A stretch of 64,000 nucleotides of DNA from an uncultured Clostridium sp. (GCA_946499885.1 CAMMTN010000006.1:8375-72374), one strand, 5' to 3'. Shown: positions 5,510-46,317, counted from the first letter of the stretch. Numbers and translations: made by a program. Notes: a model not told the origin generated them from the letters alone.

Positions 5510-6658
5510 TTAAACTGATTTCGTATGTAAAAAATTTTCCATTTTATCTGCAACTTCTTTAAAGCCATTGTCAAAGAAATGAGAATAAATATTATGAGTT
5601 ACTGATACACTAGAGTGACCAGCTCGTTTACTTATTATTTGTGCTTGTACTCCACTAGATATTTGAAGTGATATACTTGTATGTCTAAGACCGTGAAATG
5701 TAATTCTTTTTAAGTTGTATTTTTTTATTATTTTATCCAAAATCTTTGAAGGTGTATCTGGGTGCATATCTGCTCCATAATTAGTAGTAAATACTCTTTC
5801 AGAATTTTGCCATTTACTGCCAAGTAATAGTTTTTGTTTATCTTGTTCAGTTTTATATCTTTTTAAAATTTGCAGTGTAGTAGGTGCAATATATACAATT
5901 CTATTACTTGTATCAGATTTTGTGGATTTTTCGAAGCTCCCATAATGAGGAAGATATTGAGTAGCTTTATTTATATTAATAAAAGATTTATTAAAGTCAA
6001 TATCATTCCATGTAAGACCTGTTAATTCTCCACGTCTACAACCACTATCTAATGCTAATAATATAATTGCTTGATATTTTATAGGCTCATGACTTATTGC
6101 TTCAATTAATTGTTGCACTTCTTCTGGAGAATAACAAGCAATATCTTTTTTATGCACTTTTATAGGTGTAACACTTTGATTAGGGTTATTATGTAGGTAT
6201 TCCCATTTTATAGCAGTATTCAAAATTTCTGATACTAATGTATAGTGATGTTTTAATGTTTTCTCAGAATATCCATTTTTATTTTTTCCTATACCTTTGC
6301 AAGTCCTTAAAGTATTATAAAAATCTTCTAAAATCTTAACGTTTATGTCTTTTACTTTTATATGACCAATGTAATTTTTTATTGTGTTACAAATTCGCTC
6401 ATATTCTTGATATGTTTTTAAGCTTATATTAGGCTTTTTATATTTTAGCCATTCATCAACTAGAACTGCCATTGTTATATTATTTTTCTTTACATAGGTA
6501 TTATTTTTTAATTGTATTTTCAATTCATTTTCACGCAATATAGCGTCTTTTTTACCACCGAGAAAGGTTTCTATATGTCTTATTCTTTTACTACCGTTAT
6601 AACCTATTGGAATATCAATTTTGTATTTCTTATTTTTTATTATTTCTTGTACTGCCAT
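5510..6658 (-). CDS. int: Site-specific tyrosine recombinase (phage integrase family)
   Basis: 382 aa. C-terminal catalytic region with RRGEL, HGLRHT and GHSSVSVTHNIYSH (R..H-x-x-R..H..Y). GGAGG RBS. Confidence 0.9.
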   Translation of the reverse strand: MAVQEIIKNKKYKIDIPIGYNGSKRIRHIETFLGGKKDAILRENELKIQLKNNTYVKKNNITMAVLVDEWLKYKKPNISLKTYQEYERICNTIKNYIGHIKVKDINVKILEDFYNTLRTCKGIGKNKNGYSEKTLKHHYTLVSEILNTAIKWEYLHNNPNQSVTPIKVHKKDIACYSPEEVQQLIEAISHEPIKYQAIILLALDSGCRRGELTGLTWNDIDFNKSFININKATQYLPHYGSFEKSTKSDTSNRIVYIAPTTLQILKRYKTEQDKQKLLLGSKWQNSERVFTTNYGADMHPDTPSKILDKIIKKYNLKRITFHGLRHTSISLQISSGVQAQIISKRAGHSSVSVTHNIYSHFFDNGFKEVADKMENFLHTKSV

Positions 6659-7586
6659 TTTTTACACCTCCAGATAATGTTGATACATTTACATAGTTGG
6701 AATTTGTCTTTTTTAAAACTGTCCTAGCTTTTTTAATAACATCTTTACCAAAACCATAGTCACAATTAAGGTCTATTATATCATCATAATATTTGTCTAA
6801 ATCTTTATAATAAATATTATACACATCTTGTATTAATGGACTAATTTTATCTAGTATAATATCTAATGAATTGGTAAAGTTATATTTGTAGAAACTAAGA
6901 TATGTATTAAATTTATTAGAAATCTCAAGTATATTATCTACATATGTGATGTAATCAGAAGTTTTTGCCTTTTTATTTTTAATCAAATTTATAATTTTAC
7001 TTAATGCTTCATCTATTATAACAATATCATTTTTTATAGGAAACTCTATAATATCCTCTAAAGATGAAAGTATGCTAGAGTTCATAATAGAGTGAAGTTT
7101 ACTTTCATAAATTGATAACAAGTTGTTTATTAGCATTACATTATTGATATTACTTGTTATGTATTCACTTAGAGCATATAAAGTAATGAAAAAGTCTATA
7201 TATTCAGTTTTTATGGTGTATAATTTTTTTAAAATTTTTAAACTAGTTAGAGAATAATAATTCATATTTTCTATACAGTAATTAAATTCGCTAGATAAAT
7301 TCCACTCAATAGTTTCTTCTATTTTTTCTATAGACTTATCAGATAATTTTAACTTTTTACCAATATTAAGATTGGTATTAGTTAAGTTATTACAATCATC
7401 TTCAAGTAAATATTCATAGCTCACATCATAAAAATTTTTAATTTTTTTTAATTGATAAGTATCTGGAAGTCTACCATTTTCGTAGTTCCTTAATGAAGAT
7501 ATAGCAATATCTAATTCTTTGCAAACTTGCTCCTGTGTTAGTCCTTTTTCAGTTCTCAATTGTTTTATTTTTTCACTAAATTTCAT
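6630..7586 (-). CDS. XRE-family HTH protein with a long C-terminal domain (repressor-like)
   Basis: N-terminal KIKQLRTEKGLTQEQVCKELDIAISSLRNYENG HTH. Divergent from a small HTH gene. GGAGG RBS. Confidence 0.8.
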   Translation of the reverse strand: MKFSEKIKQLRTEKGLTQEQVCKELDIAISSLRNYENGRLPDTYQLKKIKNFYDVSYEYLLEDDCNNLTNTNLNIGKKLKLSDKSIEKIEETIEWNLSSEFNYCIENMNYYSLTSLKILKKLYTIKTEYIDFFITLYALSEYITSNINNVMLINNLLSIYESKLHSIMNSSILSSLEDIIEFPIKNDIVIIDEALSKIINLIKNKKAKTSDYITYVDNILEISNKFNTYLSFYKYNFTNSLDIILDKISPLIQDVYNIYYKDLDKYYDDIIDLNCDYGFGKDVIKKARTVLKKTNSNYVNVSTLSGGVKNGSTRNNKK

Positions 7587-7630: not shown

Positions 7631-7676
7631 AACATTGTGTATCTGTATTGACATATAAACACAATTTTGTTATATT
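7631..7676 (+). promoter_or_regulatory. Rightward promoter with a flanking inverted repeat (candidate operator of the element switch)
   Basis: TTGACA (7648-7653), 17 nt, TATATT (7671-7676). attgtgt and acacaat form an inverted repeat bracketing the -35/spacer. Confidence 0.5.
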
Positions 7677-7763
7677 TAAGCAAACATCATCATAATTATT
7701 ATTACAAACATTATATACAATCGTGGCGATGATGTCAATATGTTTATGAAAGAAGGTGAGAAT

Positions 7764-7934
7764 ATGGCTAACTTAGATATACGTAATGCTATAAAAAATG
7801 CTAACTTAAAGCATTGGCAGGTGGCAGATTTATTAAATATATCAGAGGCAACATTGGTTAGAAAGTTAAGAAAAGAATTATCTGTAGATGAAAAAGAGTA
7901 CATTTTAAGAATAATAAAATTTCATAATAGTTAG
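7764..7934 (+). CDS. Small HTH protein (Cro/antirepressor-like)
   Basis: 56 aa from the ATG at 7764, with an aaggtgag RBS. Contains WQVADLLNISEATLVRKLRK, which looks like an HTH. Confidence 0.65.
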   Translation: MANLDIRNAIKNANLKHWQVADLLNISEATLVRKLRKELSVDEKEYILRIIKFHNS

Positions 7935-7945
7935 GAGGAAAACAA

Positions 7946-8155
7946 ATGCAAATATTTACAGTAAAAGAAGTTTCAGACTATTTAAATTGTTCTGTATCTT
8001 GTATAAGAACATTAGTAAGAAATAAACAAATACCATTTTTTAGAATAGGTAGTAAGCTAAATTTTAATAAAGAAGCGGTAGACCAATGGATAAGAAATCA
8101 AGAAATACAGAATATGCAACAGGCAAACTATTCAAATAAGGTAAAGAGCCTTTGA
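7946..8155 (+). CDS. xis: Excisionase-family (MerR-like HTH) DNA-binding protein
   Basis: FTVKEVSDYLNCSVSCIRTLVRNKQIPFFRIGSKLNF is typical of the helix-turn-helix excisionase family. GGAGG RBS. Confidence 0.75.
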   Translation: MQIFTVKEVSDYLNCSVSCIRTLVRNKQIPFFRIGSKLNFNKEAVDQWIRNQEIQNMQQANYSNKVKSL

Positions 8156-43103: not shown

Positions 43104-43223
43104 TTTTGAAGATAATTGTTTTTGGCGTCGTTGCACTTCATTTGAAATTTAATCAATGTACAAGGAGTACACCTCATAAATTTCAAACTTGTGCGCCTAG
43201 CCAAAAATCAATTCTTTTCAAAA
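43104..43223 (+). repeat. Family-A intergenic repeat, copy 5 (full-length hairpin)
   Basis: ttttgaagataattgtttttggc pairs with gccaaaaatcaattcttttcaaaa. The inner part is nearly identical to copy 4 (cttcatttgaaatttaatcaa.gtac....gtac.cctcataaatttcaaa). Confidence 0.85.
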
Positions 43224-43797: not shown

Positions 43798-44748
43798 ATG
43801 AGTACTTTAGATAGTATTTTAGAAGAAATAAATAAAGCAGAATCAATAGTTATACTAACACATGAAAATCCAGATGGTGATGCTATAGGTACTGGGCTTG
43901 CTTTATATAATGCATTAAAACAAATTGGAAAAAATCCAGACATAATTATTCCAGAATATCCAAGAATATTTGAATTTTTACCAGGAACTGCGGAAATAAA
44001 GAAGGAATCAGATATAAAAAAATATGATTTAGCAATATCAGTAGACTGTGCAACAATAAAAATGTTAAATGGTTTTGCAAATTATTTTGAAGATGCAAAA
44101 GTAAAAGTTTCAATAGATCATCATAGTACAAATACTATGTTTGGAGATTTTAATTATATAAGCCCAGATGCACCAGCATGTGCACAAATTCTTTTAGTAG
44201 TATTAGAATATTTTAAAGTGGAAATAACAAAAGATATAGGAACATGTATATTAACAGGAATAATTACAGATACAGGTGGTTTTAAATATTCAGGTGTAAC
44301 AGCAGAAACTTTTAAATTTGTTGCAGAATTGTTAGAAAAAGGAATTAATGTTTCAAAAATTTATAGAAGAGTACTTCAAACAAAAACAAAAGCTAATTTT
44401 GAATTAAATAGAATAGCAACCAATAGATTAGAATTTTTTGAAGATGGAAAAGTAGCATTTACATATATTACTAAAGAAGATGAAGAAAAAGTAAATTCTG
44501 AAAGTGGTGACCACGAAGGAATTGTAGAAAATGGAAGAGATATAGAAGGAGTAGAGGTATCTATATTTATTCGCCAGACAGAAAAAGGATGCAAAGTTTC
44601 TATGAGATCGAATGAATATGTTAATGTATCAGATGTTTGTCTTTTACTAGGCGGTGGCGGACATGTGCATGCAGCAGGAGCAACACTCCAATGCACAATA
44701 GAACAAGCTAAGGAAAAAATATTAAGGCAATTAAAAAGTGTAATGTAG
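43798..44748 (+). CDS. nrnA: DHH-family bifunctional oligoribonuclease / pAp phosphatase NrnA
   Basis: DHH motifs THENPDGDAIG, DCA and SIDHH. DHHA1 motif GGGGH. Confidence 0.85.
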   Translation: MSTLDSILEEINKAESIVILTHENPDGDAIGTGLALYNALKQIGKNPDIIIPEYPRIFEFLPGTAEIKKESDIKKYDLAISVDCATIKMLNGFANYFEDAKVKVSIDHHSTNTMFGDFNYISPDAPACAQILLVVLEYFKVEITKDIGTCILTGIITDTGGFKYSGVTAETFKFVAELLEKGINVSKIYRRVLQTKTKANFELNRIATNRLEFFEDGKVAFTYITKEDEEKVNSESGDHEGIVENGRDIEGVEVSIFIRQTEKGCKVSMRSNEYVNVSDVCLLLGGGGHVHAAGATLQCTIEQAKEKILRQLKSVM

Positions 44749-44846
44749 TTTTTTAGAATAAGTATGTCAAACTTATATGAGAGGAAAAATAAATATTTTT
44801 AATATTATAATTTGTTTCAATTGTGTGAAGGTATAAACTTAAAAAT

Positions 44847-44875
44847 TTGACATATAATAAAAAATAAGCTATAAT
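44847..44875 (+). promoter_or_regulatory. Consensus promoter of the candidate antitoxin sRNA
   Basis: TTGACA (44847-44852), 17 nt, TATAAT (44870-44875). Confidence 0.6.
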
Positions 44876-44881
44876 AATAAT

Positions 44882-44950
44882 AGCTTAAGCAAAATGTTCA
44901 AGTAAGAAACAAAAAAAGACTAGGTAACACCAATACCTAGTCTTTTAATT
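44882..44950 (+). ncRNA. Candidate ~70-nt antisense sRNA (type I antitoxin, par RNA II-like)
   Basis: Starts about 7 nt after the -10 box. Contains GUUCAAGUAAGAAAC, complementary to the RBS/start region of the convergent small ORF. Ends at the shared bidirectional terminator (10-bp stem 44917-44943 plus U tract). Confidence 0.5.
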
Positions 44951-45022
44951 TTAGTCTTTATCAAGTTTATCTAGTATAGAATAAATTAATATAAGAACTA
45001 AAATTTTTATGATATTGTTCAA
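44951..45022 (-). CDS. Candidate 23-aa hydrophobic peptide MNNIIKILVLILIYSILDKLDKD (type I toxin-like)
   Basis: GGAGG lies 8 nt upstream of a TTG start. Hydrophobic helix with a charged tail. Own consensus promoter and terminator. Too short for the ORF track. Confidence 0.5.
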   Translation of the reverse strand: MNNIIKILVLILIYSILDKLDKD

Positions 45023-45064
45023 GTAAGAAACCTCCTTCCTGCCACTAAGCAAGTAGGCGTAATT

Positions 45065-45093
45065 ATAATAAACTATATTATGTAATTTGTCAA
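45065..45093 (-). promoter_or_regulatory. Consensus promoter of the small-peptide mRNA
   Basis: On the minus strand: TTGACA (45093-45088), 17 nt, TATTAT (45070-45065). Confidence 0.6.
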
Positions 45094-45164
45094 CTTATGG
45101 ATTATTAAAAATAATGAATTAAAATATAAAATAACAATCTCGAATAAAGAAAGTAGTGTGAAAA

Positions 45165-46064
45165 ATGGATGGAATAATATTAATAAATAAAACAAAAGGT
45201 TGTACATCACATGATGTAGTAAACAAAATAAAACATTTGTTAAATGAAAAAGTTGGTCATACAGGAACATTGGATCCAAATGCAACAGGTTTGCTTCCAA
45301 TTTTAATTGGACAAGGAACAAAATTATCATACTATTTAATTAATCATGATAAAGAATATGAAGTTACTTTAAAATTAGGAATAAAAACAGATACCGCTGA
45401 TTCAGAAGGAAATATAATAGAAGAGCAAAATGTGGATAACAGTATTATAAATGTAGGAAATATTGAAAATACATTAAAGTCTTTTATAGGAAAACAAGAG
45501 CAAGTTCCTCCAATGTATTCAGCAATTAAAGTTAATGGAAAAAAACTATATGAGTATGCAAGAAAAAATATTAAAGTGGAAATAAAACCAAGAAAAATAG
45601 AAATATATAATATTAGTCTCAAAGAAATTAATCAAAATGAAAAAACGATTAACTTTACTGTACATTGTTCTAAAGGAACATACATCAGGAGTTTATGTGA
45701 AGATATAGCAAAAAAGATGGGAACAATAGGTTATATGAAGGAGTTAAATAGAACCAAAGTAGGTATATTTAATATAGAAGATAGTATAAGAATAGAGGAA
45801 TTAGAGAATAATATAAATGATAAACAGTATTTAGAAAAACATATAATATCAGTTGAAGATTTGTTTATAAAACTAAATGAAGAGAATAATAAAATTATTT
45901 TAAATACAAAAAAATTAACATTATTCTTAAATGGTGTAAAATTATCATATAGTTTAAAAGATGGAGAATATAGAATATATAATGATAAAAATGAATTTAT
46001 AGGAATAGGAAGTATAAAAAATAATTTATTAAAAAGAGAAATAATAGTTGAAAAAATAATATAA
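45165..46064 (+). CDS. truB: tRNA pseudouridine(55) synthase TruB
   Basis: GHTGTLDPNATGLLPI catalytic motif, 299 aa. Confidence 0.9.
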   Translation: MDGIILINKTKGCTSHDVVNKIKHLLNEKVGHTGTLDPNATGLLPILIGQGTKLSYYLINHDKEYEVTLKLGIKTDTADSEGNIIEEQNVDNSIINVGNIENTLKSFIGKQEQVPPMYSAIKVNGKKLYEYARKNIKVEIKPRKIEIYNISLKEINQNEKTINFTVHCSKGTYIRSLCEDIAKKMGTIGYMKELNRTKVGIFNIEDSIRIEELENNINDKQYLEKHIISVEDLFIKLNEENNKIILNTKKLTLFLNGVKLSYSLKDGEYRIYNDKNEFIGIGSIKNNLLKREIIVEKII

Positions 46065-46317
46065 TATAAACTTAAACACTCTTAAAAAGTAAAATTCTCC
46101 GACGTGTTAAGTAGCAACACTTTGAAGAGTTAATAGATTAATAAAAAATGTGTACAGTATTATTTTTATGTTTGATTAAAAATTTTTTCAAAAAAGTATT
46201 GTAAAAATAAAAAAAATAGTATCGTCAAGTGAAAAGTTAAATGCAATTGTTTTAAAAAGTGTTTAAAATCAGAAATAATAGTTGAAAAAAAATAATATAT
46301 ATGATATTATATAAGTA

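What the first reader, a model, noticed from the sequence alone, without database searches (positions are those of the whole stretch)
44847..45093. Candidate par/Fst-like type I toxin-antitoxin module between nrnA and truB
Two perfect TTGACA-17-TATAAT/TATTAT promoters face each other across a single bidirectional terminator with a 10-bp stem. The minus-strand transcript has GGAGG, then 8 nt, then a TTG start. It encodes a 23-aa peptide with a hydrophobic helix and acidic/basic tail (MNNIIKILVLILIYSILDKLDKD). The ~70-nt plus-strand transcript carries a 15-nt direct-repeat copy (gttcaagtaagaaac, at 44896-44910 and 45017-45031). That copy is exactly complementary to the mRNA from just after the SD through codon 2. 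Convergent transcripts that share a terminator and have 5' direct-repeat complementarity define the architecture of the enterococcal par (RNA I/RNA II, Fst) system. Here the module sits inside a core translation-factor operon.
Basis: partly seen in the sequence, partly recalled or inferred. Interest (0 to 1): 0.7.

Follow-up and report, generated by a model that had tools for sequence, protein, structure and literature searches.

The report
Candidate sRNA-controlled toxic peptide gene
Between two housekeeping genes of an uncultured gut Clostridia bacterium lies a small RNA gene facing a strain-specific gene for a 23-residue greasy peptide, laid out like a known RNA-controlled toxin–antitoxin pair; the RNA is older than the peptide gene and is conserved in relatives that lack it.

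Summary
These are two near-consensus convergent promoters, one bidirectional terminator, a GGAGG-8 nt-TTG 23-codon hydrophobic ORF, and a direct repeat. The exact repeat is 16 nt, not 15, so the ~65-nt plus-strand RNA is complementary to the ORF's translation start.

The layout matches enterococcal par. The peptide is not an Fst/Ldr member: it has no Trp, no P/D/S/TxxxG motif and no Pfam or NCBIfam hit. There is one repeat, not two.

Comparative data are the main new result.
- The plus-strand RNA gene (-35 to terminator) is conserved almost base for base in 12 toxin-less contigs from at least three diverged lineages.
- The 195-bp peptide half (44950-45144) is seen only in the window's lineage.
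- Five near-identical conspecific contigs keep only the hairpin.
- The peptide gene is never seen without the RNA gene.
- No homolog of the peptide was found anywhere.

Best reading, at moderate confidence: a lineage-specific type I toxin-antitoxin-like module. The small-ORF cassette sits beside an older conserved sRNA, or truB leader, that masks its start codon. Toxicity and transcription are untested. I rate it a new member of a known kind, of moderate interest.

The parts
44847..44875 (+). Promoter of the short plus-strand RNA (TTGACA-17-TATAAT). The palindrome AAGCTATAAT-A-ATAATAGCTT spans the -10 box.
   Evidence: scores it 12/12. It is conserved from about 5 nt upstream of the -35 in all sRNA-bearing alleles, while sequence further upstream is unalignable in L104 and L113. 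The palindrome is (I11).
44882..44950 (+). Predicted ~65-70-nt plus-strand RNA, the candidate antitoxin. It has a 5' single-stranded region carrying the repeat, an A-tract and a terminator hairpin. The transcription start is inferred from the -10 box, not mapped.
   Evidence: Fold: -19.9 kcal/mol, z = -5.9. The covariance model finds it only in this clade. It is 93% mean column identity across 5 allele types, with the hairpin invariant.
44895..44910 (+). Direct-repeat copy 1 (TGTTCAAGTAAGAAAC), inside the short RNA. It is complementary to the peptide mRNA's translation start.
   Evidence: It is invariant in the L001, L100 and L104 types and has 2 substitutions in L113.
44914..44946 (.). Bidirectional intrinsic terminator hairpin (core GACTAGGTA-ACACCAA-TACCTAGTC). 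The minus-strand tail UUUUUUUGUUU is strong; the plus-strand tail UCUUUUAAUUUU is weaker. The loop on the mRNA strand, UUGGUGU, contains a YUNR match (UUGG).
   Evidence: scores it on both strands. The core is identical in 21 loci, including the hairpin-only alleles.
44951..45022 (-). 23-codon ORF (TTG start) encoding MNNIIKILVLILIYSILDKLDKD. It has a hydrophobic core and an acidic/basic tail. This is the candidate type I toxin.
   Evidence: Best Kyte-Doolittle mean over 14 residues is 2.89, in the range of Fst, TisB, ShoB and IbsC (sequences recalled from memory). It is the only strongly hydrophobic short ORF among 27 GGAGG+start sites in the window.
45016..45031 (+). Direct-repeat copy 2. 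On the minus strand it is the last SD base, the spacer, the UUG start codon, codon 2 and the first base of codon 3 of the peptide mRNA.
45031..45040 (-). Shine-Dalgarno region AGGAAGGAGG, 8 nt upstream of the TTG. It is partly paired in a predicted 5' stem-loop of the mRNA.
   Evidence: The 5' stem-loop alone is not significant (z = -1.3).
45065..45093 (-). Promoter of the peptide mRNA (TTGACA-17-TATTAT).
   Evidence: scores it 11/12.
44950..45144 (.). 195-bp 'peptide half': ORF, SD, 5' UTR, promoter and about 50 nt beyond. It is present only in the window lineage and absent in all other alleles.
   Evidence: It has no similarity elsewhere in the window or in 114 loci.
44757..44912 (.). 156-bp 'RNA half': upstream sequence, plus-strand promoter and repeat. 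It is absent from the hairpin-only conspecific strains.
   Evidence: L082, L083, L084, L087; L086.

Best explanation
This is a lineage-specific type I toxin-antitoxin-like pair with par-type geometry.

A strong sigma-70-type promoter at 45093-45065 drives a ~150-nt minus-strand mRNA. Its GGAGG-8 nt-UUG start opens a 23-codon ORF for a membrane-type peptide with a hydrophobic core and charged tail. The mRNA ends at the shared hairpin.

A consensus promoter at 44847-44875 drives a convergent ~65-nt RNA that ends at the same hairpin. The two RNAs are complementary in two places. One is the ~40-nt 3' overlap through the terminator. The other is a 16-nt repeat that covers the last SD base, the spacer, the start codon and codon 2. 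Pairing at the repeat would block ribosome binding, and therefore peptide synthesis, as RNA II does for fst.

Any plus-strand read-through toward truB would be fully antisense to the peptide gene and would reinforce repression.

Evolution: the RNA gene is the older, conserved element of the nrnA-truB spacer. The peptide cassette is a 195-bp add-on found in one lineage.

Shown here: the sequence signals, the complementarity, the duplex energy, and the conservation and polymorphism pattern. Inferred: that both RNAs are made, that the peptide is translated and toxic, and that the RNA represses it.
For: - Signals and geometry.
- The same consensus promoter form precedes genuine RNA genes in this genome, a tRNA and the lysine riboswitch.
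- The 16-nt repeat is rare by chance.
- The repeat/start-site duplex is -23.2 kcal/mol against -9.1 +/- 2.6 for shuffles, 0 of 1000 reaching it. The 3' overlap duplex is -65.8 kcal/mol.
- The mRNA is unusually structured: z = -4.6 for the whole mRNA and -3.0 without the terminator.
- The peptide meets the generic type I toxin description: under 60 aa, a hydrophobic membrane-type segment and a charged C-terminus (PMC6563280).
- The A-tract that supplies the mRNA's terminator U-tail lies in the RNA half, so the two halves fit together around the hairpin.
- A phylogenetic footprint shows the plus-strand promoter and RNA are a real gene.
- The allele states seen are RNA+ORF, RNA only, and neither. 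ORF without RNA is never seen. This is what a toxin dependent on its antitoxin predicts.
Against: - There is no expression or toxicity data.
- The peptide has no homolog anywhere searched, so selection on the coding sequence cannot be assessed. Searches covered 1.84 billion representative proteins, plasmids, phages, viral contigs, one metagenome scan, Pfam, NCBIfam, PHROGs and PADLOC.
- An ORF staying open for 23 codons is unremarkable in 27% G+C DNA (about 0.14 by my estimate).
- The hydrophobic stretch is only about 14 residues and is interrupted by K6.
- The RNA is conserved in 12 contigs without the ORF, so its main role may be unrelated to the peptide.
- The ORF-bearing allele rests on few assemblies, possibly from one or two samples.
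- The predicted SD-sequestering 5' stem-loop is not statistically supported.
Confidence: 0.5

Rival explanations
1. The plus-strand element is mainly a toxin-independent gene. It is either a stand-alone regulatory sRNA, or the truB promoter plus a short leader with an attenuator hairpin that sits 20 nt before the truB RBS. The minus-strand cassette is then a harmless small membrane-protein gene, or a non-coding antisense or sponge RNA, that came under the RNA's control. It modulates the RNA or truB rather than acting as a toxin.
For: - The segment from the promoter to the hairpin is conserved base for base in 12 ORF-less contigs from at least 3 lineages (TruB 81-94% identical), while upstream DNA is unalignable.
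- The hairpin, loop included, is invariant with no compensatory changes.
- The plus-strand U-tract varies from strong to weak between alleles, which is compatible with regulated read-through into truB.
- Hairpin-only strains have no room for a separate truB promoter.
- Parsimony makes the ORF half one recent insertion. No ORF remnant is detectable in the L104 type (p = 0.11).
Against: - The 16-nt perfect match sits exactly on the ORF's start site. The strong SD, strong promoter and strong minus-strand terminator tail are what a repressed, potentially harmful peptide gene looks like.
- A leader of about 30 nt is too short for a known riboswitch, and Rfam has no match.
- The RNA gene itself is dispensable, because it is deleted in 5 conspecific contigs.
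Confidence: 0.3
2. The right half is non-functional DNA, an insertion or local partial duplication of the RNA gene region. Its repeat, promoter-like and SD-like strings are by-products, and no peptide is made.
For: - It is seen in a single lineage with no sequence variation to test selection.
- This intergenic region is a hotspot for unrelated insertions and palindromic elements in related species.
- Similarity beyond the 16-mer (59 nt at 73%) hints at duplication.
Against: - An 11/12 promoter, AGGAAGGAGG at optimal spacing, a start codon, an ORF ending 4 nt before the hairpin and a 7-U tail on the correct strand occurring together is unlikely for junk.
- The flank similarity is only marginal (p about 0.04).
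Confidence: 0.15
3. It is a true, homologous member of the Fst/Ldr (par) family.
For: Its organisation matches that of par, and there is a YUNR-type UUGG in the mRNA terminator loop.
Against: - No Trp or Val junction residue and no P/D/S/TxxxG motif. The peptide has no proline and no glycine at all.
- It is 23 aa against 33 aa for Fst-pAD1.
- No hit to Pfam or NCBIfam even at E <= 10.
- One repeat, not two.
Confidence: 0.03

Closest known systems
par of Enterococcus faecalis pAD1 (RNA I/fst - RNA II) and chromosomal par-like loci (par_EF0409, Fst-Sm/srSm, SprA1/SprA1AS)
   Same: Convergent promoters. Both RNAs end at, and overlap across, one bidirectional intrinsic terminator. A direct repeat transcribed in opposite directions makes the short RNA complementary to the toxin's start site, so repression is by blocking translation rather than by overlap with the coding region. 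The start codon is non-AUG. The peptide has a hydrophobic helix and a charged tail. The locus is chromosomal and intergenic (PMC7472228, PMC4147584).
   Different: One 16-nt repeat instead of DRa plus DRb. The peptide is shorter (23 aa) and lacks the Trp and PxxxG signature and any detectable homology. The antitoxin-like RNA is conserved on its own in many genomes without the toxin, and the peptide half is a recent 195-bp add-on. The SD-sequestering 5' stem-loop is only weakly predicted.
Clostridioides difficile type I TA modules (CD2517.1-RCd8, CD0956.2-RCd10, prophage-borne toxins)
   Same: The host is also in class Clostridia. The toxin and RNA genes converge, and the small hydrophobic toxin has a charged C-terminus and no homology to other families (PMC6563280).
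   Different: The C. difficile toxins are 34-59 aa with lysine-rich tails. They have long antisense overlaps that suggest a degradation mechanism, and they sit in prophages or next to CRISPR arrays. Here the peptide is 23 aa, the repeat targets the start site, and the locus is between nrnA and truB. I did not align this peptide directly with those toxins.
Very short enterobacterial type I toxins (Ibs/Sib, ShoB/OhsC)
   Same: The peptide length class (about 19-26 aa) and hydrophobicity are comparable. The sequences were recalled from memory.
   Different: Different gene arrangement (fully overlapping or divergent antisense), a different phylum and no sequence similarity.

Membership tests
par / Fst-Ldr family (Weaver 2020, PMC7472228) | Convergent promoters producing a toxin mRNA (RNA I) and a short regulatory RNA (RNA II) | tested here: met
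   12/12 and 11/12 consensus promoters face each other 246 bp apart. This is a sequence-level prediction only; transcripts have not been observed.
par / Fst-Ldr family (Weaver 2020, PMC7472228) | A shared bidirectional intrinsic terminator giving 3' complementarity | tested here: met
   The hairpin at 44914-44946 scores as a terminator on both strands. The overlap duplex is -65.8 kcal/mol.
par / Fst-Ldr family (Weaver 2020, PMC7472228) | Two direct repeats (DRa, DRb) transcribed in opposite directions that sequester the SD and the initiation codon | tested here: inconclusive
   There is one 16-nt exact repeat, covering the last SD base, the spacer, the start codon and codon 2. No second repeat was found, and the extended similarity is marginal.
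par / Fst-Ldr family (Weaver 2020, PMC7472228) | A YUNR U-turn motif in the terminator loop of the toxin mRNA, which starts the interaction | tested here: met
   The loop UUGGUGU contains UUGG. This is weak evidence: by my estimate a 7-nt loop has about a 25% chance of a YUNR match. The same loop is present in alleles without the ORF.
par / Fst-Ldr family (Weaver 2020, PMC7472228) | A 5' stem-loop in the toxin mRNA that sequesters the ribosome-binding site | tested here: inconclusive
   The minimum-energy fold pairs part of the GGAGG, but the 5' segment is not more stable than shuffles (z = -1.3).
par / Fst-Ldr family (Weaver 2020, PMC7472228) | [quoted passage not shown] | tested here: not met
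   MNNIIKILVLILIYSILDKLDKD has no W, P or G. S15 is followed by ILDK, so there is no SxxxG. There are no Pfam or NCBIfam hits at E <= 10.
Type I toxin-antitoxin systems (generic) | A small (<60 aa) hydrophobic protein with a potential membrane-spanning segment and a charged C-terminus | tested here: met
   23 aa, with a best 14-residue Kyte-Doolittle mean of 2.89 and the tail DKLDKD. The definition is from PMC6563280. The hydrophobic run is short, about 14 residues.
Type I toxin-antitoxin systems (generic) | [quoted passage not shown] | tested here: met
   There are two complementary regions. The RNA gene is supported by a phylogenetic footprint.
Type I toxin-antitoxin systems (generic) | The toxin arrests growth or kills on overexpression, and the RNA counteracts it | not testable with these tools
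   This needs an expression experiment. The only indirect hint is that the ORF is never seen without the RNA gene among about 20 contigs.

The most novel reading that the evidence does not exclude
This may be a type I TA caught at its origin. An older, conserved sRNA (or truB leader RNA) of the nrnA-truB spacer has been co-opted as the antitoxin of a newly arrived, or locally born, 23-codon peptide gene.

The peptide's translation start is a copy of the sRNA's own sequence read on the opposite strand. Marginal similarity extending 59 nt, and a truncated MNILLKLLLL reading frame opposite the sRNA gene, would fit a partial local duplication.

The natural allele series within near-identical strains (hairpin only, RNA only, RNA plus peptide) would then record how a par-type module is assembled or dismantled.
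Probability: 0.2. Interest if true: 0.7.

Novelty: new member of a known kind. Interest (0 to 1): 0.45.

Why it matters
If the peptide is toxic and the RNA represses it, two things follow. First, par-type type I TA design would be found in an uncultured, small-genome, low-G+C gut Clostridia lineage. Homology searches find almost no type I toxins in that class (PMC6563280). Second, it would add one of the shorter Gram-positive type I toxins.

The locus also offers a natural allele series in near-isogenic strains, together with an antitoxin-like RNA that is conserved without its toxin. That makes the origin and decay of type I TA modules testable, and also the question of whether antitoxin RNAs have housekeeping roles. 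If the peptide is not toxic, the conserved ~65-nt RNA upstream of truB is still an undescribed RNA gene with no Rfam match.

Tried and rejected
**Searches that found nothing**
- Rfam at the gathering threshold and at E <= 10: no par/Fst RNA or other family at the locus.
- Pfam, NCBIfam, PHROGs and PADLOC on the 23-aa and 33-aa forms: no hits.
- Exact look-up of the 33-aa extended ORF: not on record.
- phmmer against 1.84 billion representative proteins: nothing.
- Plasmid and phage BLAST, DNA and protein modes: nothing.
- Four viral-contig pattern scans, including back-translated peptide patterns: nothing.
- The single metagenome scan used a pattern matching either repeat context. It gave one true relative, which is RNA-only, and four chance hits.

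**Ideas tested and dropped**
- Paralogs in the window or in 114 loci: none.
- Tandem-duplication origin of the right half: flank similarity is marginal (p about 0.04).
- A remnant of the ORF in the L104-type allele: not significant (p = 0.11).
- High window-versus-L001 identity as proof of selection on the RNA: rejected as sole evidence, because a 98.4%-identical tract also runs into truB and may be a recombination tract. The L104 and L113 footprints are the better evidence.
- A T-arm mimic for TruB in the repeat (UUCAAGU fits UUCRANY): no stem can be drawn, so I treat it as probable coincidence.
- The mini-ORF ATG-TTC-AAG-TAA in the sRNA as a leader peptide: it has no SD and is not conserved in L104 or L113.

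Full report
**1. The observation**

Window 44749-45164 is the 416-nt spacer between a DHH/DHHA1 (NrnA-type) gene (43798-44748) and truB (45165-46064). It lies in an infB-rbfA-nrnA-truB block that is followed by 6S RNA. The DNA is 26.8% G+C. The closest public relatives are uncultured gut Clostridia MAGs.

- Plus-strand promoter: TTGACA-17-TATAAT at 44847-44875, 12/12.
- Minus-strand promoter: TTGACA-17-TATTAT at 45093-45065, 11/12.
- A hairpin at 44914-44946 that scores as terminator-like on both strands.
- On the minus strand: AGGAAGGAGG, 8 nt, then TTG opening MNNIIKILVLILIYSILDKLDKD. The stop codon is 4 nt before the hairpin.
- A direct repeat that is exact over 16 nt, not 15 (44895-44910 = 45016-45031).

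These features are not chance.
- Promoter matches of >=11/12 number 14 in 64 kb, against 6.6 +/- 2.3 simulated. The other 12/12 sites include those before a tRNA and the lysine riboswitch.
- A 16-nt exact repeat in such a spacer was reached in 2 of 300 simulations.
- The repeat occurs nowhere else in the window.

**2. RNA-level anatomy**

The predicted ~69-nt plus-strand RNA folds as a weak 5' hairpin, a single-stranded repeat and A-tract, and a 13-bp terminator stem (-19.9 kcal/mol, z = -5.9).

The predicted ~150-nt mRNA is strongly structured. The z-score is -4.6 for the whole mRNA and -3.0 without the terminator. Its 5' stem-loop pairs part of the SD, but on its own it is not better than shuffles (z = -1.3).

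The two RNAs can pair in two places.
- The 3' overlap through the terminator gives -65.8 kcal/mol.
- The repeat gives -23.2 kcal/mol, against -9.1 +/- 2.6 for 1000 shuffles, none of which reached it. This duplex covers the last SD base, the spacer, the UUG start codon, codon 2 and the first base of codon 3.

The mRNA-strand terminator loop UUGGUGU contains a YUNR match (UUGG).

**3. Comparative evidence (the main new result)**

I collected the nrnA-truB spacer from three sources:
- 80 GTDB species representatives;
- contigs encoding identical NrnA, RbfA or TruB;
- contigs for eight close TruB variants.

Four allele states exist.

| Allele state | Spacer length | Where seen |
|---|---|---|
| (a) Full module | 416 nt | The window and ERZ2641648 NODE_1704. 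L085 is identical as far as its contig reaches. |
| (b) RNA gene only | 221, 245 or 321 nt | 12 contigs: L001, L096, L100-L103 and L107; L104-L106; L113 and L114. Three diverged allele types; TruB 81-94% identical to the window's. |
| (c) Hairpin only | 66 nt | 5 contigs: L082 (same contig as L090), L083, L084, L086, L087. They are 99.8% identical to the window upstream of the spacer, so they are the same species. |
| (d) Unrelated | variable | All more distant species. Their spacers are very short or carry other hairpins or palindromic elements. |

A covariance model of the RNA found no further copies in 549 kb of related loci.

Three conclusions follow.

*The plus-strand RNA gene is real.* In the L104 and L113 alleles, sequence 5' of the -35 cannot be aligned. 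From about 5 nt before the -35 to the end of the hairpin, identity is about 93-100%, and the hairpin (loop included) is invariant. The high identity between the window and L001 alone would not prove this. A 98.4%-identical tract also runs 220 nt into truB and may reflect recombination.

*This RNA gene exists without the peptide gene.* It does so in most genomes that have it. It therefore predates the peptide gene, has another role, or has targets elsewhere.

*The peptide half is specific to one lineage.* It is the 195 bp at 44950-45144, holding the ORF, SD, 5' UTR and promoter. The short spacers after the terminator in the other alleles look orthologous to one another. I found no significant ORF remnant in them (p = 0.11). 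Parsimony therefore favours one insertion over three or four independent losses.

The A-tract that gives the mRNA its 7-U terminator tail belongs to the RNA half, so the two halves are functionally fitted around the hairpin. The state 'ORF without RNA gene' was never seen.

**4. Homology of the peptide**

None was found. See the list of searches that led nowhere for the individual calls. The peptide cassette is therefore an orphan, and selection on its coding sequence cannot be assessed.

On composition, the best 14-residue Kyte-Doolittle mean (2.89) equals that of known short type I toxins (sequences recalled from memory). It is the only strongly hydrophobic short ORF among the 27 GGAGG+start sites in the window. 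Two cautions apply: an ORF open for 23 codons is not unusual in AT-rich DNA, and the hydrophobic run is only about 14 residues.

**5. Mechanism proposed**

The best-supported reading is a type I TA-like pair with par geometry. The minus-strand mRNA encodes a small membrane-active peptide. The convergent short RNA masks its start site through the repeat. The terminator overlap, and possibly loop contacts, provide a second interaction site, as described for RNA I and RNA II (PMC7472228, PMC4147584). Plus-strand read-through toward truB would add full-length antisense repression.

Shown here: the signals, the complementarity, the energies, and the conservation and polymorphism pattern. Inferred: transcription, translation, toxicity and repression.

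Confidence is about 0.5. The rivals are:
- a toxin-independent sRNA or truB leader with a harmless or non-coding antisense partner (0.3);
- a non-functional insertion (0.15);
- true Fst/Ldr membership (0.03).

**6. Comparison with known systems**

It works like par. It is not an Fst/Ldr member, because the defining toxin signature was tested and not met. That signature is a Trp or Val at the junction between the membrane helix and the tail, plus a P/D/S/TxxxG motif. Only one repeat is present, not two.

It meets the generic type I criteria that can be read from sequence (PMC6563280).

It differs from the C. difficile modules in three ways: peptide length, the mode of complementarity (start-site masking rather than long overlap), and genomic context.

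**7. Verdict**

- Novelty: a new member of a known kind, namely a candidate type I TA of par design with an orphan 23-aa peptide.
- The unexpected feature is that the antitoxin-like RNA is an independently conserved gene.
- Interest is moderate (0.45). Another candidate type I TA would not surprise a specialist. The natural allele series and the toxin-independent conservation of the RNA make the origin of such modules testable.

Noticed in passing
window 46037-46300: A ~234-nt segment between the truB stop and the 6S RNA promoter is absent from sister-species locus L001. It is bracketed by a ~28-nt direct repeat, agaaataatagttgaaaaaa(a)ataatata, at 46037-46065 and 46272-46300. This is another indel hotspot next to truB.
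   Followed up: partly
window 43118-43210; related copies at 37721-37835 and 28142-28202; L001 880-1240: A long palindromic REP/MITE-like intergenic element (ttttggcg..gttgcacttc..tttgaaatttaatcaatgtacaaggagtacacctcataaatttcaaacttgtgcgcctagccaaaaa) lies in the infB-rbfA spacer. There are diverged copies elsewhere in the window, and the element is tandemly duplicated (257 nt extra) in L001.
   Followed up: partly
window 44756 / 45147: A recombination breakpoint sits at the spacer. Conspecific contigs L082-L084 are 99.8-99.9% identical to the window up to 8 nt past the nrnA stop, but only 95.7% identical across truB. L087 is 99.6% identical on both sides yet lacks both halves of the module.
   Followed up: partly
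window 44865-44887: The palindrome AAGCTATAAT-A-ATAATAGCTT spans the -10 box of the plus-strand promoter. The arms AAGCTA/TAGCTT are kept in the distant L113 allele despite a changed centre. It may be an operator for a repressor.
   Followed up: no
window 44896-44903: The repeat core reads GUUCAAGU (GUUCAAAU in L113). It therefore fits the tRNA T-loop consensus UUCRANY, the substrate motif of TruB, directly upstream of truB. No T-stem can be drawn, so this is probably coincidence (post hoc chance about 0.04 by my estimate).
   Followed up: partly
window 7640-7745: Two near-consensus promoters face each other: plus strand at 7648 (11/12) and minus strand at 7738 (12/12). They lie between a minus-strand 318-aa gene (6630-7586) and short plus-strand ORFs (7740-7934, 7946-8155). 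This looks like a prophage or mobile-element repressor/cro-type switch.
   Followed up: no
L013, L014, L015, L017, L022 (nrnA-truB spacers): Related species carry one or two copies of a GTGGACAAAAGGGAC...GTCCCTTTTGTCCAC palindromic element at the same spacer. Other species carry different hairpins. The nrnA-truB junction is therefore a recurrent landing site for small structured elements.
   Followed up: no
window 45087-45115: A plus-strand promoter-like site, TTGTCA-17-AATAAT (10/12), lies back-to-back with the peptide promoter inside the inserted half, about 45 nt before the truB start. It could restore truB transcription downstream of the insertion.
   Followed up: no
window 44868-44900 (minus strand): Opposite the sRNA gene, repeat copy 1 opens a truncated frame, TTG AAC ATT TTG CTT AAG CTA TTA TTA TTA TAG (MNILLKLLLL*). 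It resembles the N-terminus of the 23-aa peptide (MNNIIKILVL) but has no SD. It is possibly a trace of common origin of the two halves.
   Followed up: partly
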